Source of the DNA: Octopus vulgaris
Taxonomy: Eukaryota
NCBI GenBank assembly: GCA_951406725.2
Contig: OX597829.1
Location: 37,138,001-37,202,000, forward strand
DNA: 64,000 nucleotides
Direction: 5' to 3'
Under the pieces are notes generated by a model, which was not told the origin of the DNA, ran no database searches, and worked only from the letters and a program-made list of their open reading frames with translations. The translations under genes were made by a program, and so were the position numbers. The first letter of the stretch is position 1. Each line of letters opens with the position of its first letter. Shown piece after piece: positions 5,756-63,569 of the stretch.

Positions 5756-5844
5756 GGTGGGGCTGCAGCATGACCACACCTGCAAGGCTGAAATGAGTAA
5801 AAGAATAAAAGAAAATATATACATAATATATATATATGTATTAT

Positions 5845-6395
5845 GAGAATTGAAGCTCCCCAAAGGTCAATCACAAAAAAGATAGATGGCATGTCAGACC
5901 TTGACTACTGGGGTAGACTAGAGAAGCTGAAATTGTATTCACTCCAACGACGCCGTGAACGCTACATTATCTGTATGATGTGGAAAATATTCCATCAGCA
6001 CTGTCCGAATGATGTTGGCATCACCTTCAAAATACATCCAAGGCTTGGACCACGTGCCATCCGTCCACAACAAAAATCTAAATCGCATCACATAACGACA
6101 ATACGGCACAATTATTTCACCTCTATTGGACCTGCTGTCTTCAACATTACACCAGGACATGTCAAAACAGAAACTGACCACACAAAATTCAAGAAGTCTT
6201 TGGACAAATTCCTTCAAACAGTCCCGGACAAACCACCCACACCTGGATATGTCACCGCAAACAATAACTCTCTGCTTGAATGGGCCTTGGTGCCCAAATC
6301 CTGAATTGAAAGACTTCGCCAGGTGGTGCTGTTAAGTCAGACATAGCCTGGGCCAATACTGGCCAAAACCTTTCTAAGTTAAGTTATTCTAAGTT
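5845..6395 (+). mobile_element. 5'-truncated CR1/L2-group LINE 3' end
   Basis: ORF 5843-6304 (DYWGRLEKLKLYSLQRRRERY...FKKSLDKFLQTVPDKP) matches the CR1-group ORF2 C-terminus; 3' UTR hairpin GGCCAATACTGGCC and TTCTAAG-type tail. Confidence 0.8.
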
Positions 6396-10190: not shown

Positions 10191-10226
10191 CTTCTTTTAA
10201 GAAGTGGCAATCACCATTTGTATGTA

Positions 10227-11025
10227 CGAGGGGCGTTCAATAAGTAATGCCCCTGACCCACTTCCCATAGCAGTAGAGCAACGGAACTTGGCACAGTTAT
10301 TAGTCTTTTTCTACATAGGAATCACCCAGAGTTACGCATTTCTCCCATTGTTTGATGCAGCTCTGGAGACCGTTTTTGTAGAAGACCCCAGCTTGGTCCT
10401 CCAACCTGAACGTGACTTCAGAAATCAAGGCTGCATCATCTGGGAAACGCTTTCCTTTCAAAAACAACTTCATGACTGGGAAGAGGTGAAAATCAGAGGG
10501 TGCAAGGTCAGGAAAGTAGGGGGATGGGGGAGGAGTTCATAGCCATACGCCTGTGCTTCTGATCTGGCGACAAGCGAGTTGTGGACCGGAGCGTTGTCCT
10601 GCAGGAGGAGGATGCCTTTGCTGATCTTGCTCCGCCTCTTGATTTTGATAACTTCTCTTAATTTCCTCAAAAGTGAAGCATAATAGACTCCTGCAATTGT
10701 GGTTCCCTTTGCCAGGAAATCTGTCATCACTACTCTGTCGTGGTCCCAGAAGACTGTGAGCATGACCTTGCCAGTGGAGGGCTGCAACTTTGCATTCTTT
10801 GGAGGGGGTGATCATCGTGATGGACCCAGGTTTCATCCTGTGTAATCAGTCTTTTGAAAAATTTTGACTCATCTTCTTGGCACATCTCCAAATCAGAAAC
10901 CACAATTAATTCAGAACTAATTTGCCACTTACTCTATAGAGATATAAATGATTGCACATGCAAAATTTCAGCTAGATCAAACAACTGCAAGTGGGTCAGA
11001 GGCATTACTTATTGAACGTCCCTCG
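10227..11025 (-). mobile_element. Internally deleted mariner (DD34D) transposon
   Basis: 37-bp TIRs (CGAGGGGCGTTCAATAAGTAATGCCCCTGACCCACTT, 2 mismatches), TA TSD, motifs ITQDETWVH, GKVMLTVFWD, LLQDNAPVH, PDLAPSDF; N-terminal HTH region absent. Confidence 0.9.
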
Positions 11026-11648: not shown

Positions 11649-13587
11649 CTAAAACATTGTTCTTAAAAACAGAATGGCTTCTACCACATCTTCCTTCATA
11701 GAAGCCCTTGAATCAGATTTAATTATCTTTAGAGCAGAAAGCATTGCTGTTAAAGTTCTGGCTACATCCCTAATAATATCTGGATAAAGAAGGATGACTT
11801 CTTCTACAGTAAGTTTCGATGACTGATCATACTTTTCCACTTCTTTTAAGGCATTAAGAGTATCTTGCTGAAACTTTCTTTTTTATTTAAAGTTCTAATG
11901 GTGTTTTTGTAGTTTCTTCATTCAATTGCTGTCACTTCACTTTTGAATGCTCCATTTCATCCAAAACAGCTTCAAAGTCTAATTATTCATTCGATTCTGA
12001 ATAGGTTGCTTTCAAGTTACTGGTACTGTGAACATCTTTAATTTCAGTTTTGGGTTGCCTCTCATGTCCTTTCATTTGATATGCTATTCCACTCTGTGCC
12101 TGTTTTCCTTCATCAATTTGCTTATTGTTTATTAAAATTCAATTCATCGGATCAATGTAAATAGCAGCTAACAAAATTTTATTGTCCAGCAAGAGAGATT
12201 CTCTTTTTCTCATTGAAAGAACAATACCATCAGAAATTAATCCTCCTTTTTTGTTCCAGACTAAATATCAACTTTTTCCACTCCAACAAGAATCCACCAG
12301 GGGTTAAATCCTCAGATTGCAACTTCTTGGTGCCAATATAAGGCTGAAAAAGCAAACTTTCTAGTTCTTTTACTTGTGTCCACTAGTTTTCAGTTAGTGA
12401 AATATTTTGGTTATCTAGATCCTTCAGAAAAGTTTTTAGTTTGATCATCAAAGAGGTGCTACCCCAGTGTGTTGCTAGATCTAAAATAGCCCCCTTTCCA
12501 GCACGTCTCTTCAGAATGGCATCTGTTTTGGGTGTTTGGGCTGCAACAGCTACTTGTCTCCGCTTTCCAATGAGAGTAGCTGCATGTCAATCTTTCTATC
12601 CATCTTTTATTGCTAGTTGTAGTGAATGTGCAGCACAGTGTATATGTTGAATTGTAAATAATCTGGATACTTCTTCTGAAGCACTAGAGTTCTCCTCTAG
12701 TGCTTCTGTTAGTTCTGCTACTGTTCCAGGAATGTTCTCTTTATCATCTCATGTTTTTGTACCTTCTTCAGTAGCTTTATTTATTTTCTCAGTTGTACTC
12801 AACATATTTGAAACATTATCAGTTACAATAAAATACTTCTTCCACCAACTTCTGAAGATATGCAATAGTGTTGTGCTTGAGTGTCCTTTACTGCCAATGT
12901 CTGTGTCACCACCTTATCATTCTCATCAACAAACCTGACGTTAATGGCAAAATAGTTGGTTCTGTGGGCATCCATTTTAATAAAGACAAAGCGTTCCTTT
13001 AGACCTTTTTTAAGTTCTTCTTTCTTATATTGGACCTCTTCAATTACAAACCTTTTTATACTTTCTCTTTTCAGTGAAACACTAACTTTTCTGGCCATTT
13101 CTCCATTTAAAGGCTGGAAGGCTGGTTGCAAAACAAAAAACAAAAAAAAACATGATATAGGTACACTGTCTTTTACTACCATTTCAGTGGTGTAGCTCTT
13201 AAACTTCTGTGATGTCATTGTTACAGTAACTTTATCAGAAGTAAAGACAGCTGATATTTTGGATTGTCTTCTTGAAGATTTCTCATCTTTTATAGCTGGA
13301 GTGCTTACATTAATATTTTCTCTATCTTTCCTATTTACTTCTTCTAACGCCTTAAGATGATAACATTGCAAGTATCTTTTCAAATTTGAAGCTATTGTAG
13401 AAGCATTCTTTGAGGAACCAGTGAAACTACTGATTTTTGAATGACATAATTTTTCACCACCATTGACGTTACACTGGCAATGATAATATTTTCTATCTGT
13501 TGTGATTGTAAAATATTCAAACACTGCCAACTTTGGTGAAACTCTTTTTGTCATACTTATTTTTGTAGAAAGGCTATAATTTTTCAA
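11649..13587 (-). pseudogene. hAT-family transposase fossil
   Basis: N-terminal BED-finger-like (VFEYF..C.C..LC...ASNLKRYL), HCAAHSLQLAI CxxH motif, WGST motif, C-terminal dimerisation region SALKIIKSDSRASMKEDVVEAILFLR; multiple stops and frameshifts; TIRs not identified. Confidence 0.8.
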
Positions 13588-15311
13588 ATTTGTGAAAAAT
13601 TGAGATTGGCCTCAAATATAAATAATTAAAATGAAATATTTCCTGAAAAGGAAAAAAAAATTAGATAATTGAGTAAGCATCTGCAATATTTGAAATTAGT
13701 ACATACAATCAGGGGCATATATGGTCGAAATTATTGGGGTGGGGACAAGAATTTTTTGACCAACTAAGTTTCAAGTCATAGAAAAATTCTCAAAAAAAAA
13801 AAATTATTTTGAAATTTTTCTTCAATTTAAAAATTATTTTATGAGTTTTAAAAAAATTATTTTCTTATAGCGATGGTTTGTTAATTACTGTAAATGAAAA
13901 ATATTGAAAGAAATTTATACTAAGAGAAAAACCTAGCACTTGCAGTTTTTTTATGCTTCCTTATTTAAATACCCAAAACATTTTTTAAACTCCCGTCAAT
14001 CTTGAGTGTCTTGCTATAAAAACATCATGACTATATTAAAATTATTACAGTACTCAAAATTTTCTTACATATCAATGTTGATTTTATTTTTCTGTATTTC
14101 CTTTTTCCACTTACAAAATAATGCAACAACAATTTACATTATGAGAAAAATTATTAATGAAACTATGATGAATTTGAATTACATTTAATGAGTAAATTTT
14201 GAAGTTTCCTTCTATTCTATCAATTAGTGAGTTTCAGCCAAAAAGCAAAAAAGACACAGCAAAGAAACCTCAGCTTTTGAAGTCTATTTATTTCTAAGAG
14301 GTATTAATTAAAAGGAAACTCACCCCTTATTACAAAAAATATAACTTGCAAGACTTAACCATCTAATTCATTTTGAGTACTTATTGAAAATCAAATTAAG
14401 AGTCTCTGTACTGTAAAAATAAAAAAATGAAAACTGAACATTTTTACAAAGAAAATGTAAGTTCATCAAATAATTACTAATTAAAAGGAACCTTACCCTA
14501 AAGATATTCAATAAATTGGAAAATACTTAACTATTTTAAAAGAAGGAAAAAAATTATTCATGAGATTTTATGAAACAATTGAACAACTTCAAGTAATATT
14601 TGAGATTTAAGTGAGACTTCTTGCCTGTTAGGAAATTTGAAAAATGGGAATGTTATCATGAAAGCAAGTTTCAGTTCAAGTTCAGATTAATTGAAAAGAG
14701 TTGCCTTTCTCAAAAAAAAAAAAAAGAAAAAAAAAACTGAGTTAGGATGATAAAGTAAATTAAGAATAATAAAACTTAATAGTCTGAATAATTAACTGAA
14801 TATTTAAGTACTTTTTAATTAAAGATCAAAGTTGAAAGAATCTTGGTCTCTCTACTCTCTAAATAAAAAAAATAAAATATTTTTTTAAAAATCAAAAATG
14901 CATTGGTGTAGCAATTTGCTGAAGCAGGAGTACATTGAAGTCTTAGGAGAAACTTTTTACACCAATGTGTATCAAATTATTCCTATTGCCAAAATTTAAG
15001 TTTGATTTTAAATGCATATTCCAGGTAACATTTGTGAATTTTTTTGTGCTCTTAATTCAAAATAAAAAGTAACACATTTTCAACAATATCTACACAGATT
15101 TGTTGATGAGAGAACAAAGTTGTAAGTAATATGTTACTCAGGTTGTACGAAAATTTTCTACAATCCTAATTCAATCCTTACCAAGAATAAAGCGTAGTGT
15201 CCCCTTAAATTTACTATATTCTCTTATTCTTTTACTTGTTTCAGTCATTTGGCTGTGGCCATGCTGGAGCACCCCCTTTAGTCAAGCAAAACGACCCCTG
15301 GACTTATTCTT

Positions 15312-15930: not shown

Positions 15931-17172
15931 GATAATGTGTGGTTTTATGAGCTATATCTCTTGCCAAGGAAAAGACATTAGTGCTGCTGCTGGTGGTACT
16001 TCAGCTGGTGATGGTGCTACTCTTGATGTTCCTGCAGTTATTGGTATGTGCATATGTGTGTGTATGTATATATTTTAAGTGTGTGTGCGTGCATACACCT
16101 GCTTGAACATGTGTGTGTGTATATATATGTATATGAGTGCATGTGTGTACCCCAAAATATGTCTTTACAGTTATGAATTTGTGTTGCAAAATTCTTGACG
16201 TGAAGTTGTCTGTTGAAACAGATATTGTTGTATTTCAGGATGGTCGGGGTTTTTTTTTTGCCAAATAAACACACACTATATATCCGTTCTTCACTCATTT
16301 ACTACTGTTCTTATTCCAAAGATGGAATAAGCAGAGTAAGAGCATACACAAAGATGGAAAGTCTCACCAAGGAGGTCACAGATGGGTGATAAAAGATTTC
16401 CGGACAATGGACATGAGTTACAATAAGAACAATAATAAATAAGTGAAGAATGAATATATAGTGTGTTTAAAGGGCGGAAAATAAAATTTTTTTAAAAAAT
16501 AAATAAAAAGACCATCCCGAAATACAATAAAATATGTCTTTACATTTAGTCCTATGGAAATGTAGAGATTGATCTTTTGACCCCTATACTGTTTATTTGG
16601 TCCTTTGTCTACTATTCTACTATGTAGCAGTTACTAAATAAAAAGTGATACATAGCCCACTCCATACCATTATATTCTTGTGTATTTGATCTGAGTTTAT
16701 ATTTATTTTCCAGTTTCTAACCATTGGTTTGGATAGATGCCTTAAAATTTTATCCTTTTTTATGGTTGTCCTCTTCAGCCTTCCTTCCTTCCTTCCTCAT
16801 TCACTCACTCTTATTCTCCATCCCTCCTTCCTTCCTCCCACCCCTATCTCCTTCCCTTTTGTTTTCTCTGATTTTCCCTTTTTGTTTTTTTCCTATCTCC
16901 CTTTCTCTCTTTTTTTTTTTTGTCCCTCTCCATATCTCTTTGCTGTTTATTTCCTACTTCCTTCTCAAAATACTTATAAAATGTCTTATCATGTCTCCAA
17001 CTTCAGACATTAGATCTCAATAAAATGTTCCCCTGATGATCTGTTGCAGTAAAGCATCCAACTGTACTTGGAACATCCAATGGTGTGGATCTAAACAACA
17101 ACATTTGTAAAATGTACATAGAAATTAATGATATAAAACTTGTGTTTGTCATAATTTCTTTTGTGTGTGTGT

Positions 17173-29280: not shown

Positions 29281-29691
29281 ACAACAAATACTAAATGAAC
29301 TGCAAAGGTATCTTGATTAATAAATTTCATGAGGTCATTGTTACTGCCTGTATCTCATTAGGATCTCACCATAAGCTGCTTTTTCTTCAGATTAGGATTT
29401 CTCAAATATCTTTTATATTATATCTTTTCTTTATTTCTTTTACTTTACTCCCATATTTTTTATATATTTTCTTTAGATTAAGGATTTCTTAAAGATCTTT
29501 TAGATTATATTTTTACTTTATCTATAGTCTCGTTTTTTAAAATTTTATACTTCATCTCATTTGGAGATTTTGACCAAGACTACATCCTAGACTATTGGTT
29601 ATGATTTTCTTTTAATTTGGAATTTCTTAATTATCTTTTACTTTTCTTTTTAATTATGGTCTCATATTTTTACAATATTTGTTACTTTAAT

Positions 29692-30024
29692 TTCGTTTTT
29701 GGATTTGGTCTGCAAGATTCTTTATATGAGTTCATGTGTTGAAGCATATTCTGTTGTGTCTGGGGAGAGTCATTCTCTTTTAGTGCCTTATTATTTAACA
29801 CACTCACCGGTAAAATTTCCACTTATTTTTTATTTTTATTTTCTAAAATTTTTGTTGCGTCTTGCAACCTTTTCAATAGTCTTGACTCTCAAGACTATTG
29901 AAAAGGTCGCAAGACGCAATGAAAATAGAAGACTATTGAAAAGGTTGCAAGACGCAACGAAAATTTTTTTCGAAAATAAAAATAAGAAATAAGTGGAAAT
30001 TTTACCGGTGAGTGTGTTAAATAA
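29692..30024. mobile_element. Short fold-back retroelement with three U3-A8 hammerhead-like units and a 12-bp TSD
   Basis: TSD TGTTACTTTAAT at 29680-29691 and 30025-30036; inverted arms centred ~29887; same family as 48434-48655. Confidence 0.8.
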
Positions 30025-31149
30025 TGTTACTTTAATGTTTATCTTATTTTTTATTCTATATTTTTATATTTTGTATTTATAATTTTATGTTATCTTATTT
30101 TACTGTATCTTTTATTTAAAATTCTACTTTTCACTTTTTATATTTTTATATATATTTTATAACTGGTATTGAGCACATATCCATCACTAGCTATTAGTAA
30201 TACTCTTTCCTCATTATCTGACACTCAGAACTACACTCAGTCTAGATACCTCTGTCTACGTAATTTTGTGTTATTTTTTTTATAAATGCATACTACTACC
30301 TTCTATATTACTATATTTTGTATTATTTTCTAAACTGTTATATTTTTCTCTCTTTGTAATACTCTTATGCCATCTAACCCCAATAACTATGCTTCATTAC
30401 CCACTATTGCCTGATCATTTTGTGTTAAAGTATTCCTATTCTCTGAGTGAGTATGTATTTTTCTGTGTATGTATATAAAGATGTGCACATTTGTGTAAAT
30501 TCATATATGCATGTTCAGGTGTGTAATGATATATGTAAGTGTGTGTGTATGTGTGTGTGTGTGTATGCATGTGTTTATGTATGTGTGTGTGTGTATATTT
30601 ATATGTAATGTTCCAGCATGGCCACATTAAGGTGGAGGTGGTTCTTCAACATGGCCACAGTCAATGACTGAAACAAGAAAAAAGTATATATATATCATCA
30701 TAACCATCATCATCATTGTTTAATGTTTTCCATGCTGGCATGAGTTGAATAGTTTGACAGGAGCAGTCCAAACTACAGTTGTCTTCTGTGGCATGGTTTC
30801 TATGGCTGGATGCCTTTCTAATGCCAGCCATTTTATAGAGTATGTTGAGTGCTCTTTATGCACCATTGGCAGGGATACATTTATATGGCACCAACACAAG
30901 GTCATTTTATGTGGCACTGGCACCTGTAAGACAAAGACCTCTCTTGGCTGGGAGAGGGAGGGGCAAAGCCAAAATGGACATGCATGTATAATGGATGGCC
31001 ACATATATCATCATCATCATTGTTTAATGTCCTCTAAGCTATATTTCCCTTCTTCCTCCTCCTCCTCCTCCTCTCTGTCATCAGAGGCTTCCATTATCTT
31101 CTTTTTCAGTATGGTTTGGTTCTCCAAGTCTTTCTAGCCCTAATTCTGA

Positions 31150-33728: not shown

Positions 33729-36486
33729 TTTTGATTCATTTCTATACCTTTTATTATGAGTGTCTTCAATATTAAAAGAAATATAACTGAATGCATTCAG
33801 TGTTTGGTTTATTTACATATTGTAAACATGCCCAAAAAGTTTGTCCCAAAATGAATTAGGCTGATTGTGCCTTCAAATCATGACATCTGAAGAAGGGAAA
33901 GAACTATACAAATATTACTATATATTTTTATATATTATGGCATGTATTACATAACATTATATATATTGCATAACACTGTATCAGATATGGAATAAATAAT
34001 ATTATTCATTTACAGAAACAATTATAATGTCAATAAGAGAATATTGTAGTTCGCTTGAAGCATTGTGTATTGAGAAATGGGACAGAGAGAGAGGAGATAA
34101 GATCGACCTCTGCATGTACAAGCAGTATTCTTAACTAAATTCCTTTGTTATAGTGTACACAACTATAATGAATAGGGAAGAACTGAGAATCAAATTCATT
34201 CCCTATACTCTAAATTCATTGCTATACTTATTGTTAACTTGCACCTTATTGAAAGTATCTCTGTACATGGCTTTAATTCTCTCACAAGCCTTTTTTCTAG
34301 CTTCCTTGAAAATCACCAGATCACAACGTGATGGACTCTGTTCAAGATTGAATGCAAAGTACAATGACTTATTTTCAGCTAAATATTTCTCCTGTAGTTG
34401 TTCACTAAAATGACATCAGTATTACATCTCCCACTCACAAAACTAAATTTTATCTCATCAACTCTAATTTTGTTCCTAATTAATTCGGGTTATAATTCTT
34501 CATAACTTTCGTGATCTAGTCTGGCAGTTTCATCTTTCTACAATTTCTTGTAAAGTATCTTCTTTACCCTAGTTAACAGCTGACTATGATGCTGCTTCAC
34601 CAATCATTAGATATGTGTATGTGAATATTTCTGGAGAGAAGCAGGGTTGATTTATCAGCGGGTGATTGGAAACAAGTAACTCTGATTAATGAAAATGGGA
34701 ACCTTTCAGTTACTTTTGTGCTGAATCCTGTCATTTACTGCTTCTAATGAATCATCAGAGATTTGTATGTATCTGTATGTATATGTGTGAGATGACAAAG
34801 GTAAAAAAAACAGTTATTTTATGAAATTCAATAGCTTACAGTTGTTTCTGCTATAAGATGCTGCACGGAATTTTGTCAGAGAACAGGTCGCGGTCTCAAA
34901 GCAATAAAAATATTTTGACAAATTAAATTTAAATGTTGAAGTAAATCTAACGGATTTTGTGTGTTTCTTAAGTGGCTCATAAACATCTTCCATGCTGCAA
35001 TTGTTTATTATATATTATATATGTACTGTGTACAATTAGATGTATGATCACTACTGTATGAGTTTCACTTCATGTAGATTATCATTATACAATATTATAC
35101 AATCAGTCTCCAGTATAGTAGTTATTCTCCACTGTACTTAGTGGTGATACTAGTTATGGTATACAGATCACGGGGCTCAACATTAGACGTTCCAAATGTA
35201 TTTGGATGCCTAACTGCAATGGCTCAGCAAGGGAACAATGTTACATTCTTTTAGAGATCAGATATTTGTTCTCTATAATAAAATGTTCCTCCAATGATCT
35301 GTTGTGATGAAGCATCCAAATGCACTTGGAACATCCAGCGCTGAGTTTCAACTGCAATGGTGAAATGTACATAGGAACTAATAATTATACTTATGTTTGT
35401 CTTAATTTTTCCATGTATAAGATGTGTGTGTGCGTGTGTGTCTGTAGACTAATTTGCCCATCTAAATCAGATATTGGTAAGATTAATAAATTTATTATGA
35501 TTATTGATAAGCATTTCCCTAAGCTTAGACAAAATGTTAATTTAATTTATGTTTTTAGTCTAATTTCTTGGAAGTAATTGATTGGTTCAATAATATTAAG
35601 GATAAAAAAAAAACATACTAAATCTGTTCTGTTGGATATATCAAATTATTTTTCATCCATTAACCTTTTACTTCTCAATAAAGCCTTAATTTTTGTGATG
35701 AAGAATTCAAATTTATTCAAACATGAAGTTGCCATTATACTAATAGCTAGGAAGACCATAACAGAATTCAATGGAAAGTACTGGACTAGGACCAATAGAT
35801 CTGATTATTTTGACATTACTATGGGGTCCAGCAACTCCACTCAAGTAACTGATTTAGTGGACATGTACATTCTTAACTGTATACATAGTGAATTTCTTGA
35901 ATTAGTGGGTGGATTATATACAGATGATGTTCTTTTCACTATCCATATATCTAGTAAGGACCCAGAAGAAACTTGTTAAATTCTTTATCTCCATATTCTC
36001 TATTCTTTATCTCCAATTCTCTATCTCCATAGAAAATGATTATACTAAAGTTAACTTCCTCTGGATTTAAAGTTACTCTGGATTTAAGTACAGAACTATA
36101 CCAACCATATCATAAACTGAATGAGTGCTTGAGGTATGTGAATAAAAATTGTAATCTTAGAAGCATCATAAATTCTATCCTTGAAAATATATTAACTCAT
36201 ATTTCAAAGCTTTCTACTAATATGGATGTATTTGCACAAAATGAAAATCACTATAAACCACTCATTATCTAAGCTGGGTATAATGAAAAAATTTACTATA
36301 TCCACAATCAAAATATTAATAAAGTTCCCAGTAATGATAGGATATTAAATATGCTGTAACTTGATACTGAGTGCAATAAAAGTAAATACATCAAGGAATC
36401 TTATTTAAGTAAACTAAGTAATAGCATGAATAAGGATAGAAATATGATCAGTAAAGAAGGAAGTATTGAAAATAAACATATTAATA

Positions 36487-37365: not shown

Positions 37366-37897
37366 TGCAGTTCTATATTTAAGAGATGAGGAATTATGTA
37401 CGTTATTTACATTATTTAGATTTGTTGGTTATTTGTCCTCATCTTGTTTGTTGTTAACACAACATTTTGGCTGATATACCCTCCAGCCTTCATCAGGTGT
37501 CTTGGGGAAATTTGCTTGTCAATTGTTTGACCATAACCAAATGAGTATGTCCCTTAGTGGCTGACAATATGTGCATCTCTGATTACCAGCAGAAGTAGTG
37601 GGGCTGCATCATTGCCATGTGTTGAGAGGAATTGTTTGGGGTTTGGATAATTCACTTCTGGAAACATGGATGTTTTGTTCAACATCCTTAAACAACCCTT
37701 ATTATTTTGACCCAAATTCTAACTGCAAAGTCATGCGCTATTTATCTTGATATGAGATCACCATATTGTGCACATATGGTTATGATGTATGTATCTGGTG
37801 TGCCCTTATTAGATGGGTAGTCATGATGGGTATACTGGGCTTTGTATATTTTACCCTAGTGTTACTTTGATGGCATGCACTGCTCTCTTACTCAGTA
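37366..37897 (-). mobile_element. PLE 3' fragment with hammerhead motif (37456-37501)
   Basis: Minus strand GACAC-CUGAUGA-A-GGCUG(GAGGGUAUAU)CAGCC-[A]AAA-UGUU-GUGUU. Confidence 0.65.
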
Positions 37898-38506
37898 ATT
37901 ATGAATGTAAGTATATGTGTAACTTAAAGCATAAAAGTTACAGCAAGAGAACATCTAATTCTAGAATTAAGAATTATAAACATGTTGATAATGTTAATAT
38001 TAAGAAAAATGTATATATAAATAATAGAAAAACTAAATCAAGGAATATTATCTGGTATAATGGAAATTCTTTGCTGTACTGGATAAATATTTCTCTCCTT
38101 CAAGTAAGTACAGGAAATTGTTTAATTGCCATTTAGTAAAAGTTTCCTATTTTACCACTAGAGATGATTGCAGCACATAACAAAAGTAACATCAGTATCT
38201 CAATTCAAAACTAGTAAACATGAGCAGATCCAATAGTGTAAATAGGGAAATTAGCTCTATTAATAATCTTCATGAACTAGATTTTGGTATTTTAGGTAAA
38301 AGTAATTCCGACTGTGAAAATGATAAAAGCTTTAAAATAACACCTAGTAACAATATTGGTCATAATACAGCTAATAATCCTGCTTTAACACCTACTTCTG
38401 TTTACCATGAGTATCACATACAAGTAAATAAATGCCTTTGTAATTTCAAAAACAAACTTGTGACCTTTAGAAAATCAGTGTTCAAGTAAAAATATAGTGT
38501 ATTGAA

Positions 38507-42976: not shown

Positions 42977-43029
<53 letters not shown>

Positions 43030-43033
<4 letters not shown>

Positions 43034-43156
43034 GCAGTGTGGCAGATGTTTGTAAGCCATTTAAGAACACACAAAAACTGTTAGATTCACTTCAACATTT
43101 AAATTTAATTTGTGTCAGAATATTTTCGTCACATTGAAACTGTGACTTGTTCACTG

Positions 43157-43160
<4 letters not shown>
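43030..43160 (-). mobile_element. Short HHR-bearing repeat in (TA)n with G3-C8 hammerhead core (43113-43157)
   Basis: Minus strand UCA-GUGAACA-A-GUCAC(AGUUUCAAU)GUGAC-GAA-AAUAUU-C-UGA; homologous plus-strand copy at ~34870-35003. Confidence 0.7.
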
Positions 43161-48024: not shown

Positions 48025-48433
48025 TATCCACTAATAACTGCATGCTTGGCTTTGTAAATCATATCCATGTTAAGTAAGATATACAGAATGCTATTCTGAA
48101 CCAATACTGCTTCCATTGCTGGTAACAAATTAGCAATGGAGTTTGTTATTATCAATAACAAATTCCATTTTTACCTAGCCCACTAGTTATTTGCAACAGT
48201 AGAGGTTAAATTTTTCTATGCATGTAGTTGATAGTAGATCCTTGCCATTGATGATGTACACAGACACATAAATCCAGATTTAGTAATTTCACAACCACTT
48301 CTGAATGTTTTTCATCTACTACTTAAACATCTATATGAGAAGTTTTCTCAAGATGAGTGCTATGGTTTTGTAGCTTTCTACAGTATATCCACTTTGAGTA
48401 ATGTATACTAAATAATGCTAAACATTATTTTCA

Positions 48434-48655
48434 TTTCGTTTTTGGATTTGGTTTGCAAGATTCTTTATATGAGTTCGTGTGTTGAAGCATATTCTGTTGT
48501 GTCTGGGGAGAGTCATTTTCTTTTTGTGCCTTATAATGTAACACACTCACCGGTAAAATTTCCACTTTTTTCTTATTTTTATTTTCCTAAAATTTTCATT
48601 GCATCTTGCAACCTTTTCAACAATTTTGACTCTGTCCGTTATTTACACTGCGTTC
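48434..48655 (-). mobile_element. Second copy of the U3-A8 hammerhead-bearing short element
   Basis: Colinear with 29692-29890; minus strand UUG-UUGAAAA-G-GUUGC(AAGAU)GCAAU-GAA-AAUU-U-UAG at 48586-48625. Confidence 0.7.
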
Positions 48656-48677
48656 CTTTTTGTTTGTTTGTGCACAT

Positions 48678-49199: not shown

Positions 49200-49860
49200 G
49201 TATGGAGGTATTATATTTACTATGTATATTTCCTATTTAGTATTGAGGAGGTTTCATTTTTAAGGACGTACTCCAGTATTTATCTGAGTTGGGTCTTTGA
49301 TAAGATGCGGATGTCAAGTTGACCCAAGTTACCTCCATGGTTGTCTTTGGCGTGTTGGTAGAGTATGGAGGACTGTTTTCTGTCGTCATATTGTCTTAGA
49401 TGTTCATTTATTCGTTCTGCAATGCTCCTAAACATCTCCCCTATGTACGTCATGTTCATGTCCTTACAAGCACCTTCTATGCATCTTATGCTGTAAATTA
49501 CATTTCGAGTTCTACAGTTAATGCCAGGGCTAATCCTACATACCATGCAGTTATCATTGGTGCATATGGTATTCTTAAAGGGGTACGTCCAACATAGTTG
49601 TGATCTGATGGAGTTCCCTGGTCTTTCAACAATCTTAATGTTGAGTTTGGTCTCCTTCAGAGCTTTTCTAAATCTACGGGCTAGTTCTCCATGGGCTGTG
49701 GCCTCTACAAACATCACTCCTTGATATTTGTCAGTTTTATACCATGTGTTCACCCTGTTTGCTTTGTCACAAGTTCTTTGTATTCTATTCCATTCTTTGT
49801 TTCTATATCTAGGGCAGGTACCACTGGTATCATTACGTATAATGTTATCTAATTTCTTTC
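49200..49860 (-). mobile_element. Penelope-like element GIY-YIG endonuclease fragment
   Basis: ORF 49280-49888: CRTRNVIYSIRC...YIGE.FRSIAERINEH...QH...H (GIY-YIG with a CCHH arrangement), upstream Cys cluster. Confidence 0.8.
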
Positions 49861-49965
49861 TAGCCCCACCCTGTATACTTATTTTCATTTTGTGTTATTA
49901 AACTTTGAAGTATTTTTTATCTTGATTTACCTTATTGTAATGTTGTTTCTCTTTATTTATTTCAG

Positions 49966-51234
49966 AGATTAATAGATAAAAGCAAAGTTACTTGTATTAA
50001 ATGGATTCCAGGATCTCGAAACCAGTTTCTAGTTTCACATGCAAGTGGACAAATATATGTATACAATGAAGAGCTCCCATGTTGTGGAGCACCTCCTCAC
50101 TATCAGCCTTTCAAACAGGGAGATGGATATTCAATATACACATGTAAGACCAAAAGTACTCGGAATCCGCTATATCGTTGGCTTGTTGGACAAGGTGCTA
50201 TCAATGAGTTTGCATTTTCTCCTTGCTCTCGATTCTTAGCTGTTGTTGGACAGGATGGTTATCTTAGGGTATTCAACTATGATTCCATGGACTTAGTTGG
50301 ATCTATGAAAAGCTATTTTGGTGGACTTCTTTGTGTATGTTGGTCTCCTGATGGCAAATATCTTGTTACTGGTGGAGAGGATGATTTAGTTACTGTCTGG
50401 TCATTTCATGAAAAAAAAGTAATTTGTAGAGGAGAAGGACATCGGTCATGGGTTAATGTAGTAGCCTTTGATCCTTACACATCAAATTTTTCTGATACAG
50501 AAGGCTGTGATTTTAGTGGTAGTGATGAAGAATTTCATTATGGGACATTACATAACCATGAAGGGAAAAGTGAAAACTCTGTTCATGAAACTAGTGTGTT
50601 AAATCGATCAAGGACTGGATCAAATAAAAGTTTTTCTGACACTCGGACAACAAATTTTACGTCATATCGTTTTGGTTCTGTTGGCCAGGATACATTTTTA
50701 TGCTTATGGGACTTGACAGAGGATGTTCTTAAGCAACCTGTAGGTCGTACAAGGACAAGTACCATTATTGGACCAAATGCATTTAATTATATGTCCCGTT
50801 GTAATAGTCTACCAAATTCTCAAAAATCTAATTCCTTGAACACACAGGTACCAGTTGTTGATGGAAATTCTCTGCCAAATGCATCTGTGAATATCACTGC
50901 TAAATTTGCCACACTGTCTCTTGGAGATAGAAAAGATAAGGATCATGAAAAAAAGGAACACAAAAGAAATTTAAGTTTAGCTGGCAGAAGCAGTGAAAAA
51001 GTAAGCATATTGAAAACCAGTGTTCGGCCTATTGATGAGTCTTTAAAATTACTTGGAACTCCAGCTTGTCCACGCTTAGATGAAATTCCTATGTTGGAAC
51101 CTCTTATATTTAAAAAAATAGCACATGAACGGCTAACAGCTTTAGTTTTTAGAGAAGAATGCATTGTTACTGCATGTCAGGAAGGTTTTGTTTACACATG
51201 GGCTCGTCCAGGAAAAGTGGTAAGTTTCACTTAA
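49966..51234 (+). CDS. WDR20: WD repeat-containing protein 20 (WDR20/DMWD family, USP12/USP46 activator), large internal or terminal exon; N-terminal exons not seen in window
   Basis: Polypyrimidine tract + TTTCAG acceptor ending 49965; open phase-0 frame RLIDKSKVTCIKWIPGS...TRNPL...MKSYFGGLLCVCWSPDGKYLVTGGEDDLVTVWSF...YRFGSVGQDT.LCLWDLTED...KKIAHERLT...WARPGKV; donor GTAAGT at 51220 or stop TAA at 51232-51234. Confidence 0.95.
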   Translation, partial: RLIDKSKVTCIKWIPGSRNQFLVSHASGQIYVYNEELPCCGAPPHYQPFKQGDGYSIYTCKTKSTRNPLYRWLVGQGAINEFAFSPCSRFLAVVGQDGYLRVFNYDSMDLVGSMKSYFGGLLCVCWSPDGKYLVTGGEDDLVTVWSFHEKKVICRGEGHRSWVNVVAFDPYTSNFSDTEGCDFSGSDEEFHYGTLHNHEGKSENSVHETSVLNRSRTGSNKSFSDTRTTNFTSYRFGSVGQDTFLCLWDLTEDVLKQPVGRTRTSTIIGPNAFNYMSRCNSLPNSQKSNSLNTQVPVVDGNSLPNASVNITAKFATLSLGDRKDKDHEKKEHKRNLSLAGRSSEKVSILKTSVRPIDESLKLLGTPACPRLDEIPMLEPLIFKKIAHERLTALVFREECIVTACQEGFVYTWARPGKVVSFT

Positions 51235-61826: not shown

Positions 61827-62552
61827 CATCAAGAAATAAATATAGTTTCTTTCTAAAGAGACAAAGTGTTAATAGGACTGCAAAAAAGAAGTGCTCAAAT
61901 AAATGAAACAAGGATCATTAAACATTGGTCATAGAACAAACATTAAAATGAATTAGCAACTTTATATACGGTATCAAACCTCCAACATGCATCATATATA
62001 AATAAATATTACCATGGCTTTCATAATATATAAATCAAAATATAAAATATATAAGACATACAAATACAGAAAACCAACAAAGGTAAAAAAATATACATAT
62101 ATGTGAAAAAAACATGTATAGGAACATCCCATCAAAAAGCAACTAAAAATTTATAAAATTCTTAAAATACTAAAAATGTGTCATGTTGAAAAAGTTGAGA
62201 AAATGAGTAAACAAATAAAGAATAAATCGACTAAAAAGTTTTTTTTTTTACTTCACTCACACCAAAAGGTAATAATCCATGAGTAAAATACTTCGAATCA
62301 AAAAATACATCCACACAGACTATAATAATTCATGAGTAAAGTTACTCAGATTAGACTAAACACATCATCTATGGCCATTTCTGGAGCGCATCACCATAGT
62401 TTGATTGCAATTGACACACACACACACCACACACATACATATATCATCATCATTTAACATCCGTTTTCCATGCTAGCATGTGTTGGACAGTTCAACCGGG
62501 GTCTGGGAAGCCAGGAGGCTGCACCAAGCTCCAGTTTGATCTGGCAGTGTTT

Positions 62553-63569
62553 GAAATCCTTAAGCTCTATGGGATACCAGACAAAATCATTTCTGCCATC
62601 AAGGTCCTCTACACAGATACGTCTTCAACCATCATAACCCCTGACGGAGAAACATCATCTTTCTCAATCAAAGCCGGAATACTGCAGGGAGACACACTCG
62701 CCCCATTTCTTTTCATCATTGTTGTTGATTATGTGCTACGTATGTCAGTTGATACCATCTCTGGCAAGGGCTTTGAAATAAAACCAAGAAGAAGTTCCAG
62801 ACACCCAGCTGAGTACTTGACAGACACTGACTTTGCTGACGACATCAATCTTATCAGTGATTCTCTCTCCAATGCCCAGTCTCTTTTACAATCTCTTGAA
62901 CAAGCCTCAAATTGTGTAGGTCTTTACCTCAATGAGGCCAAAACTGAATACATAAACAAGTGCCTATCCAACAGTGATTGCATCATCCATACTCTCAACA
63001 ATGCGCCCTTAAATATGGTTTCTGATTATAAATATCTTGGGTCATACATATCATCATCTGGAAAAGACTTTCTAACTAGAAAGGGTATGGCCTGGTCAGC
63101 CTGTAATGACATGCATAAGATCTGGTCATCAAATCTAAGTAGAGACTTCAAACTTGAAATCTTCAAAGCCACAGTCGAACCAATTTTACTATATGGCTCA
63201 GAAACCTGGACGTTATCAAAGAAGCTTGAGAGGCGGTTGGATGGAACCTACACTTGCCTCCTTATGAGAGCTCAAAATCTCTCGTGGAAGCACCATCCAA
63301 CCAAAATGCAAATATATGGGAAACTACCACCTGTATCATCTCTTGTGAAAGGTAGAAGAGTCCAGTTTGCTGGACATTGTTGTAGAGCTGAAAAAGAAGC
63401 CATCTACTCGCAATACCAGAGGGCGCACACTCTCCTACCCTGATGTAATCTCCAGGGATACAGGCATCCAGCAACAGGACATCCATAATGCCATGATGGA
63501 CCGTGAAGTCTGGCGTAGCATGGTAAATTCCATTGTCTTCACCACGGACGAACAATGATGATGATGATG
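62553..63569 (+). mobile_element. 5'-truncated RTE-clade LINE inserted into a family B repeat
   Basis: GILQGDTLAPFLFIIVVDY, DFADDI, YKYLGS, LLYGSETW; (ATG)n tail; TSD AGTGTTT at 62546-62552 and 63570-63576; host repeat continues on both sides. Confidence 0.9.

What the first reader, a model, noticed from the sequence alone, without database searches (positions are those of the whole stretch)
29692..30024. U3-A8 variant hammerhead family inserted as a TSD-flanked fold-back with a tandem dimer
Seen: all four units (29841-29880 minus; 29892-29928 and 29930-29972 plus; 48586-48625 minus) read UUGAAAA-G-GUUGC(AAGAC)GCAAC-GAA-AAUU-U or close variants. C3-G8 is replaced by the compensatory U3-A8 in every unit, so it is the family state rather than decay. 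Stem III is a loopless palindrome (AAUU), implying obligate dimeric cleavage. A perfect 12-bp TSD shows that the inverted-plus-tandem structure arose in one insertion event. Known: the 3-8 tertiary pair tolerates Watson-Crick swaps and rare natural variants exist. Standard CUGANGA searches would miss this family.
Basis: partly seen in the sequence, partly recalled or inferred. Interest (0 to 1): 0.8.

Follow-up and report, generated by a model that had tools for sequence, protein, structure and literature searches.

The report
Penelope-type hammerhead stub, known U-A variant
This 333-base insertion is a folded-back piece of a very abundant repeat, likely the end-repeat of a Penelope-like jumping gene, and it carries a small hammerhead-shaped RNA motif whose swapped U-A core pair was already published in 2011 and 2014; the three copies in the insertion are damaged and predicted not to cut, so it is an ordinary example.

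Summary
The anatomy is real: a 12-bp target-site duplication, head-to-head arms, a 38-nt internal duplication and a fourth copy at 48.4-48.7 kb. The motif fits the published minimal type-I hammerhead of Penelope-like elements (PLEs): U3-A8 core, extra base before helix II, G10.1-C11.1, AAUU palindrome, U17, 3-bp helix I. The descriptor gave 2 hits here against 2 in 400 simulated windows. Public contigs show a huge family in which U3-A8 is the norm. But U3-A8 is known: about 1,300 Schistosoma PLE hits (PMC4209133) and natural cases in 2011 (PMC3088659). Head-to-head arms with a TSD are the standard PLE insertion form (PMC3846280). The 'tandem dimer' is not supported: unit A has G12A, B has lost the cleavage site, C has lost helix I, and the whole insert folds into one long hairpin. 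No partner RT/endonuclease gene and no helix II covariation were found, so PLE membership is inferred and cleavage is untested. The scan reported U3-A8 PLE hammerheads on five other genomes. Verdict: new family member of a known kind; low interest.

The parts
29680..29691 (+). Left copy of the 12-bp target-site duplication; its last 2 nt also match the family's end (microhomology)
   Evidence: D14; family end at 29690 table 7
29690..29889 (-). Left arm: 200-nt repeat unit, likely a pseudo-LTR plus tail, 5'-truncated at the fold-back
   Evidence: 92.5% identical to 48433-48633 over 201 nt; high-copy in 4 of 4 runs
29690..29745 (-). 56-nt stretch between the two family end points (29746 and 29690); tail-like; may hold the start of the element's ORF (two candidate ATGs, 29773 and 29747; frame unresolved)
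   Evidence: loose ends in 4 of 4 runs at both places; frames tested without result
29843..29879 (-). Hammerhead unit A: helix I 3 WC bp, U3 at 29876, A8, helix II 5 bp, G12A (core broken), U17 at 29846
   Evidence: G12 is the majority state, 62-76% of depth
29880..29895 (.). Head-to-head fold-back junction: palindromic arms with a 3-nt loop (29886-29888)
   Evidence: (I2)
29889..29931 (+). Hammerhead unit B: U3 at 29898; helix II mismatch at 29908; three U missing, so no U16.1/U17 cleavage site
   Evidence: 29908 differs from 82-99% of depth
29929..29972 (+). Hammerhead unit C: U3 at 29936, intact core and helix II, U17 at 29966; helix I 3' strand replaced by a short local inverted copy (29967-29972)
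   Evidence: 29968-29971 differ from the family
29967..30025 (+). Rest of the right arm, inverted copy of 29790-29848; ends at a place that is neither family end point
   Evidence: (I1)
30025..30036 (+). Right copy of the 12-bp target-site duplication (first base also matches the element)
   Evidence: (D14)
48433..48662 (-). Solo copy D of the same family, same 3' end, reaching about 30 nt further 5'; hammerhead at 48587-48623 (U3 48620, U17 48590) with G-U pairs, two of them at CpG sites; no TSD noticed by eye
   Evidence: X15 loose end behind 29889 matches 48634 onward

Best explanation
The insertion is a head-to-head fold-back of a very high-copy ~200-nt repeat flanked by a 12-bp duplication, likely a truncated pseudo-LTR stub of a Penelope-like retroelement whose family carries a minimal U3-A8 hammerhead, and its own three damaged hammerhead copies are predicted not to cut. 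Likely mechanism (inferred): the element's GIY-YIG endonuclease nicked AT-rich DNA 12 nt apart. The RT primed at the left nick on the family's internal start site (29690, 2-nt microhomology) and copied only about 200 nt, stopping 13 nt 5' of U3. The new strand then snapped back and was copied as its own template, slipping twice: once to restart (the B/C duplication) and once at the AAAAUUUU palindrome (unit C's damaged end). It joined the other overhang through a 1-nt microhomology. In the source element the hammerhead would cleave after U17, slowly, as a dimer or with the element's protein as chaperone, as reported for other PLE minimal hammerheads. Shown: sequence anatomy, TSD, family abundance, family majority state. 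Inferred: PLE identity, order of events, cleavage.
For: Motif matches every feature of the published consensus for PLE minimal hammerheads (extra base at 9/10.1, G10.1-C11.1, palindromic 15.2/16.2, 3-bp helix I; PMC4209133). Descriptor scan: 2 Watson-Crick 3-8 hits and 0 non-WC in the window, against 2 WC and 3 non-WC in 400 simulated windows; summed contig depth over the left-arm bins 0.15-4.7 million against 18-79 in the left flank (three DNA runs). G12, the helix II U at 29908 and the helix I 3' strand are the majority state. The only catalytic-core variant shown besides G12 is at the free position N7 (15% in X7). All four T>C places counted for X2 and X6 lie outside positions 3 and 8, so no C3-G8 subfamily at 3% or more in those two runs. 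Two sharp 3' ends, 29690 and 29746, in 4 of 4 runs resemble the two RT start sites that bound the PLE tail (PMC11167929). Head-to-head arms, a junction palindrome and 8-10-bp TSDs are described for rotifer Penelope elements (PMC3846280). A 65%-identical sister element at 16.15-16.55 kb has the same head-to-head form with a 16-bp flanking repeat. Whole-insert folds are single hairpins of -152.9 and -137.8 kcal/mol.
Against: No RT or GIY-YIG ORF is linked to this repeat: no genome is held and two searches with the candidate N-terminal frames found nothing. The GIY-YIG-like ORF 620 nt upstream of copy D ends in different sequence and is probably another family. No compensatory change in helix II or helix I was seen (40 of 78 rows shown). 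No Rfam hammerhead model matches at the gathering score or at E up to 10. The descriptor was written after seeing the motif. The tail-like stretch is 56 nt, longer than the 30-40 bp in print. A at position 12 may make up as much as a quarter to a third of laid depth (CpG decay and reference bias not separated). The homologous site in the sister element is unreadable as a hammerhead. No empty-site joint is among the 15 of 376 joints shown.
Confidence: 0.82

Rival explanations
1. The family is a stand-alone non-autonomous element (SINE-like or solo retrozyme) derived from a PLE repeat and mobilised in trans, so most copies never had an ORF attached.
For: Depth ratio of roughly 10^4-10^5 over single-copy flank and sharp common 3' ends; both window copies are ORF-less; animal retrozymes are argued to derive from PLE pLTRs (bioRxiv 10.64898/2026.07.22.740005).
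Against: The family continues 5' of the junction (X15 loose end, copy D), and 5' ends vary, as expected for truncated copies of a longer element. The retrozyme criterion of consecutive complete units is not met.
Confidence: 0.1
2. The hammerhead resemblance is chance in AT-rich DNA; the unit is just the end of some retroelement or a fold-back repeat.
For: AT-rich motif, no covariation seen, no Rfam hit; the D-D double-hammerhead fold is +2.2 kcal/mol against a cofold minimum of -13.7.
Against: 2 WC hits in 400 null windows against 2 in this one; the family majority restores the full motif; a near-identical core is published from a Cercyon PLE.
Confidence: 0.05
3. One reading: B and C form a working tandem double hammerhead at this locus.
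For: Two core-bearing units lie 38 nt apart on one strand; PLE minimal hammerheads are thought to work as dimers.
Against: B lacks U16.1/U17 and has a helix II mismatch; C keeps 1 bp of helix I; neither hybrid core is complete. B+C alone does not fold so, and in the whole insert C is buried in the long hairpin.
Confidence: 0.03

Closest known systems
U3-A8 minimal hammerheads of Schistosoma mansoni Cercyon PLEs (Cervera and De la Pena 2014, PMC4209133; read: parts 1-3 of 4 of the main text, parts 1-2 of 3 of the supplement)
   Same: U3-A8 core; family Sm(4) in Fig. S3 has UUGAAAA, an extra base, G-C closing pair, 2-nt palindrome, U17 and a 3-bp helix I; mostly single dispersed motifs; pairs on opposite strands 100-700 bp apart are reported.
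   Different: Different family sequence and host; palindrome AU rather than CG; 5-bp helix II; copy number appears far higher; no linked ORF shown here.
Inverted-pLTR insertions of Penelope elements in Adineta vaga (Arkhipova et al. 2013, PMC3846280; read: passages and the Discussion) and the general PLE layout (Craig et al. 2021, PMC8557442; passages)
   Same: Head-to-head 5'-truncated inverted copy, palindrome at the junction, TSD, optional tail on one arm.
   Different: No ORF between the arms; TSD 12 bp (8-10 there); tail-like stretch 56 nt (31 there); right arm stops short of both family ends and holds an extra 38-nt duplication.
PAc Poseidon element of Anolis (Frangieh et al. 2024, PMC11167929; read: parts 1-2 of 4)
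   Same: Two internal end points bounding a tail, AT-rich target, weak hammerhead near the presumed ORF start.
   Different: PAc has C3-G8 and shown protein-assisted cleavage; here nothing is shown biochemically.
Natural U3-A8 hammerheads (Perreault et al. 2011, PMC3088659; passages)
   Same: Same 3-8 covariation, stated there to be active in vitro.
   Different: That passage does not concern this minimal, loopless form.
Drosophila Penelope hammerheads (Fig. S3 of PMC4209133)
   Same: Helix II strands share GUUGC/GCAAC and U or C at 17.
   Different: They have C3-G8 and a 4-nt palindrome; the shared letters may be chance.

Membership tests
PLE minimal type-I hammerhead | Catalytic core with a Watson-Crick 3-8 pair, U4 G5 A6 N7, A9, G12 A13 A14 A15.1, U16.1 H17 | tested here: met
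   Complete in units C and D and in the family majority; broken in A and B
PLE minimal type-I hammerhead | Extra base between 9 and 10.1; G10.1-C11.1; helix II of 4-8 bp | tested here: met
   Extra G in 4 of 4 units; G-C closing pair in A and C, G-U in B and D; 5 bp
PLE minimal type-I hammerhead | Palindromic 15.2/16.2 with little or no loop 3 | tested here: met
   AAUU in A, C, D
PLE minimal type-I hammerhead | Short helix I (about 3-5 bp) | tested here: met
   3 WC bp in A, 3 bp with two wobbles in D; lost in B and C
PLE minimal type-I hammerhead | Compensatory variation in helices across the family | tested here: inconclusive
   None among 40 of 78 variant rows shown; only N7 and CpG sites vary within the core and helix II
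PLE minimal type-I hammerhead | Self-cleavage after H17 | not testable with these tools
   Bench assay needed
Penelope-like element | Single ORF with telomerase-like RT and GIY-YIG endonuclease bounded by this repeat | tested here: inconclusive
   No genome held; searches with 42-aa and 51-aa candidate frames empty; no metagenome or viral contig holds the patterns
Penelope-like element | Head-to-head inverted truncated repeat with junction palindrome, flanked by a TSD | tested here: met
   compared with PMC3846280
Penelope-like element | Optional 30-40-bp tail between two RT start sites | tested here: inconclusive
   Two sharp family ends in 4 of 4 runs, but 56 nt apart
Non-LTR retrozyme | At least two consecutive tandem units, each with a complete hammerhead | tested here: not met
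   B has no cleavage site and C no helix I; criterion
MITE or fold-back DNA transposon | Terminal inverted repeats at both ends of the insertion (definition recalled) | tested here: not met
   29692-29789 has no counterpart on the right; copy D is a single arm

The most novel reading that the evidence does not exclude
This is one of the most abundant hammerhead-bearing repeats in an animal genome (order 10^4-10^5 copies), fixed for U3-A8/U17, and the 5' ends of its fold-back arms cluster at the predicted cleavage site. That would be a genomic footprint of PLE hammerhead cleavage in vivo, which RNA-seq of the Anolis element failed to show. The same genome also holds a second PLE-type family with the other swap, G3-C8, so the 3-8 pair would turn over freely between families.
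Probability: 0.12. Interest if true: 0.55.

Novelty: new member of a known kind. Interest (0 to 1): 0.17.

Why it matters
As it stands it matters little: it adds one more, very abundant family to a published variant class, and it is a reminder that CUGANGA-only searches undercount hammerheads. The family could be useful material. With tens of thousands of insertions, the 5' junctions can test whether PLE hammerheads cleave in vivo and whether inverted arms arise by snap-back or by priming at both nicks; both questions are open in the papers read.

Tried and rejected
Rfam: no family at the gathering score in the window; at E up to 10 only miRNA-like hairpin and other sub-threshold hits, no hammerhead. 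Own-genome search: none held. Pattern scans of metagenome contigs and viral contigs: 0 matches. Partner ORF by protein search: nothing for either candidate frame; short queries make this weak. Synonymous-change test of the reading frame on 10 variants: not decisive. The motif as the coding end of an ORF: the open frame through it is closed by a stop four codons upstream in copy D and has no ATG in copy A, rejected. A 48-nt intron between a GTGAGT donor-like site (29807) and a CAG (29760): no such joint among the 15 shown and the donor is absent in the sister element, unsupported. GIY-YIG-like ORF 49280-49894 as the partner of copy D: separated by about 600 nt, mostly microsatellite, and ending in unrelated sequence, rejected as not shown. 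Empty site: not among the joints shown; X2 and X6 both carry the left junction, so the TSD rests on sequence alone. Upstream exons of the WD40 gene: none found with short motifs, so intronic location is not established. Lunse et al. 2017 (PMC5785218) is not held: I saw only its title in a reference list. RNA run X15 is only guessed to be RNA and contigs give no strand or ends, so it is no evidence of expression.

Full report
Setting. The window is AT-rich (27-39% GC), full of microsatellites and transposon remains, with one long WD40 exon at 49909-51234: an animal genome by inference. No whole genome is held. My impression of a cephalopod is recalled and untested.

Observation. The insertion 29692-30024 lies between two perfect 12-bp repeats; 3 of 17,978 random boundary pairs did as well. 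It consists of a 200-nt left arm on the minus strand and a 137-nt right arm on the plus strand, joined head to head at a palindrome with a 3-nt loop. The right arm repeats its first 38 nt. A single arm of the same family lies at 48433-48662, 92.5% identical over 201 nt. All 4 of 4 units have U3 and A8.

Is it a hammerhead? Read in the element's sense, the unit gives a 3-bp helix I, UUGAAAA, an extra G, a 5-bp helix II closed by G10.1-C11.1, GAA, the palindrome AAUU and U17. That is the consensus for PLE minimal hammerheads in Fig. S3 of PMC4209133 with the 3-8 pair swapped. A descriptor built from those features, allowing any 3-8 pair, found 2 sites in the window, both Watson-Crick at 3-8; 400 order-4 Markov windows gave 2 WC and 3 non-WC sites in all. 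The descriptor was written after I had seen the motif. Rfam has no matching model. Cleavage is untested.

Family state. Contigs of 4 of the 24 runs listed were laid on 29560-30160: 23,538, 17,801, 12,611 and 3,210 records. Summed depth over the left-arm bins is 0.15-4.7 million in the three DNA runs against 18-79 in the left flank. The tool warns that this is no copy number; I take it only as an order of 10^4-10^5. Among the 40 of 78 variant rows shown, G12 is the majority (62-76%), unit B's helix II change differs from 82-99% of depth, and unit C's end differs from the majority. The one other core variant shown is N7, the free position (15% in X7). As I read table 1, X2 and X6 have four T>C places each, all shown and none at position 3 or 8, so a C3-G8 subfamily of 3% or more is excluded in those two runs. 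No compensatory helix change was shown. Loose ends (24 of 1,370 rows shown) mark two sharp 3' ends, 29690 and 29746, in 4 of 4 runs, and show that the family continues 5' of the junction as in copy D.

The tandem dimer. A has G12A. B has a helix II mismatch and lacks three U, so it has no scissile site. C keeps one pair of helix I because its end was overwritten by a short inverted copy of the adjacent letters. In a B+C double hammerhead one core needs C's helix I strand and the other needs B's U16.1/U17, so neither is complete. B+C alone folds otherwise (-13.9 kcal/mol), and the whole insert folds as one long hairpin on either strand (-152.9 and -137.8). Even two copies of D give +2.2 kcal/mol for the double-hammerhead fold against -13.7 for the best co-fold, in line with the low or protein-dependent activity reported for this class.

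Mechanism (inferred). The left end coincides with the family's main 3' end and shares 2 nt with the TSD, as expected for target-primed reverse transcription from an internal start site in AT-rich DNA (PMC11167929). The right arm ends at neither family end, differs from the left arm at 2 positions outside the damaged patch, starts at a palindrome and holds two slip scars. That favours snap-back copying of the first strand over a second priming on RNA. Arkhipova et al. read such junction palindromes as self-priming, though on an antisense template; the data here cannot tell the templates apart. Fold-back seems a family habit: 14 of the 15 joints shown (of 376) read as head-to-head junctions, typically one arm starting 33-44 nt before the predicted cut and the other 1-48 nt after it. 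Their shorter sides are only 20-52 nt at 80% likeness, the reference stops 44 nt before the cut, and unit C's damage biases starts to 29972, so this is a hint only. A 65%-identical sister element at 16154-16544 shows the same head-to-head form with a 16-bp flanking repeat.

Comparison with what is known. U3-A8 in PLE minimal hammerheads: about 1,300 hits in Schistosoma, mostly single motifs (PMC4209133); family Sm(4), tied to a Cercyon PLE, has UUGAAAA, U17 and a 3-bp helix I. Natural U3-A8 was first reported in 2011 (PMC3088659, passage). Head-to-head arms, junction palindromes, tails and TSDs are the described PLE form. So it works like a PLE pLTR insertion; formal membership lacks the RT-endonuclease ORF, which I could not find. 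It is not a tandem retrozyme by the criterion. I found no paper on this particular family in the searches run, and no earlier scan note on this sequence. Lunse et al. 2017 could not be read and part 3 of the 2014 supplement was not read; either may hold closer cases. The scan has five earlier reports of U3-A8 PLE hammerheads on other genomes; they are AI notes, not support.

Verdict. Observation largely right, interpretation overstated. A new, very abundant family of a known variant, represented here by a dead fold-back stub. Interest 0.17.

Noticed in passing
window 43005-43160 (minus) and 34868-35002 (plus): A second repeat family (82% between the two copies) with a minimal hammerhead carrying the other swap, G3-C8: at 43154 a full match with 6-bp helix II, 4-nt palindrome, C17 and helix I of at least 3 bp; the 34879 copy is decayed but keeps G3 and C8 and a longer helix I with different letters. 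I did not find natural G3-C8 in the passages read (0 hits for the term in PMC3088659); the scan has noted it elsewhere.
   Followed up: partly
window 16154-16544: A 65%-identical sister of the family (E 1e-10) forms a second head-to-head insertion with a 16-bp flanking direct repeat (16154-16169, 16529-16544) and a palindrome near 16310-16331; one arm ends near the tail end, the other near the second stop. Its hammerhead site is unreadable.
   Followed up: partly
window 49222-49894 (minus): C-terminal GIY-YIG-like endonuclease remnant, probably of a PLE (Atlas hits 0.95-0.96 to clusters with 17-18% PF01541; no Pfam hit at cut-off), about 600 nt upstream of copy D on the same strand; likely another family.
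   Followed up: partly
window 35578-36380 and 37813-38136: Decayed ORF pieces that look like PLE reverse transcriptase and its C-terminal region (recalled motifs; no Pfam hit).
   Followed up: no
window 29760-29807 (minus) and 48503-48550 (minus): Donor-like GTGAGT and acceptor-like pyrimidine-CAG exactly 48 nt apart downstream of the hammerhead in both copies; no splicing evidence and not kept in the sister element.
   Followed up: partly
window 49909-51234 (plus): Long host exon with WD40 repeats, WDR20/DMWD-like by recall; its upstream exons were not located.
   Followed up: partly
window 62415-63443, 10200-10845, 12823-13611, 5801-6304: Other transposon remains: an RVT_1 ORF, and pieces that look like mariner, hAT and LINE ends (recalled, not tested).
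   Followed up: no
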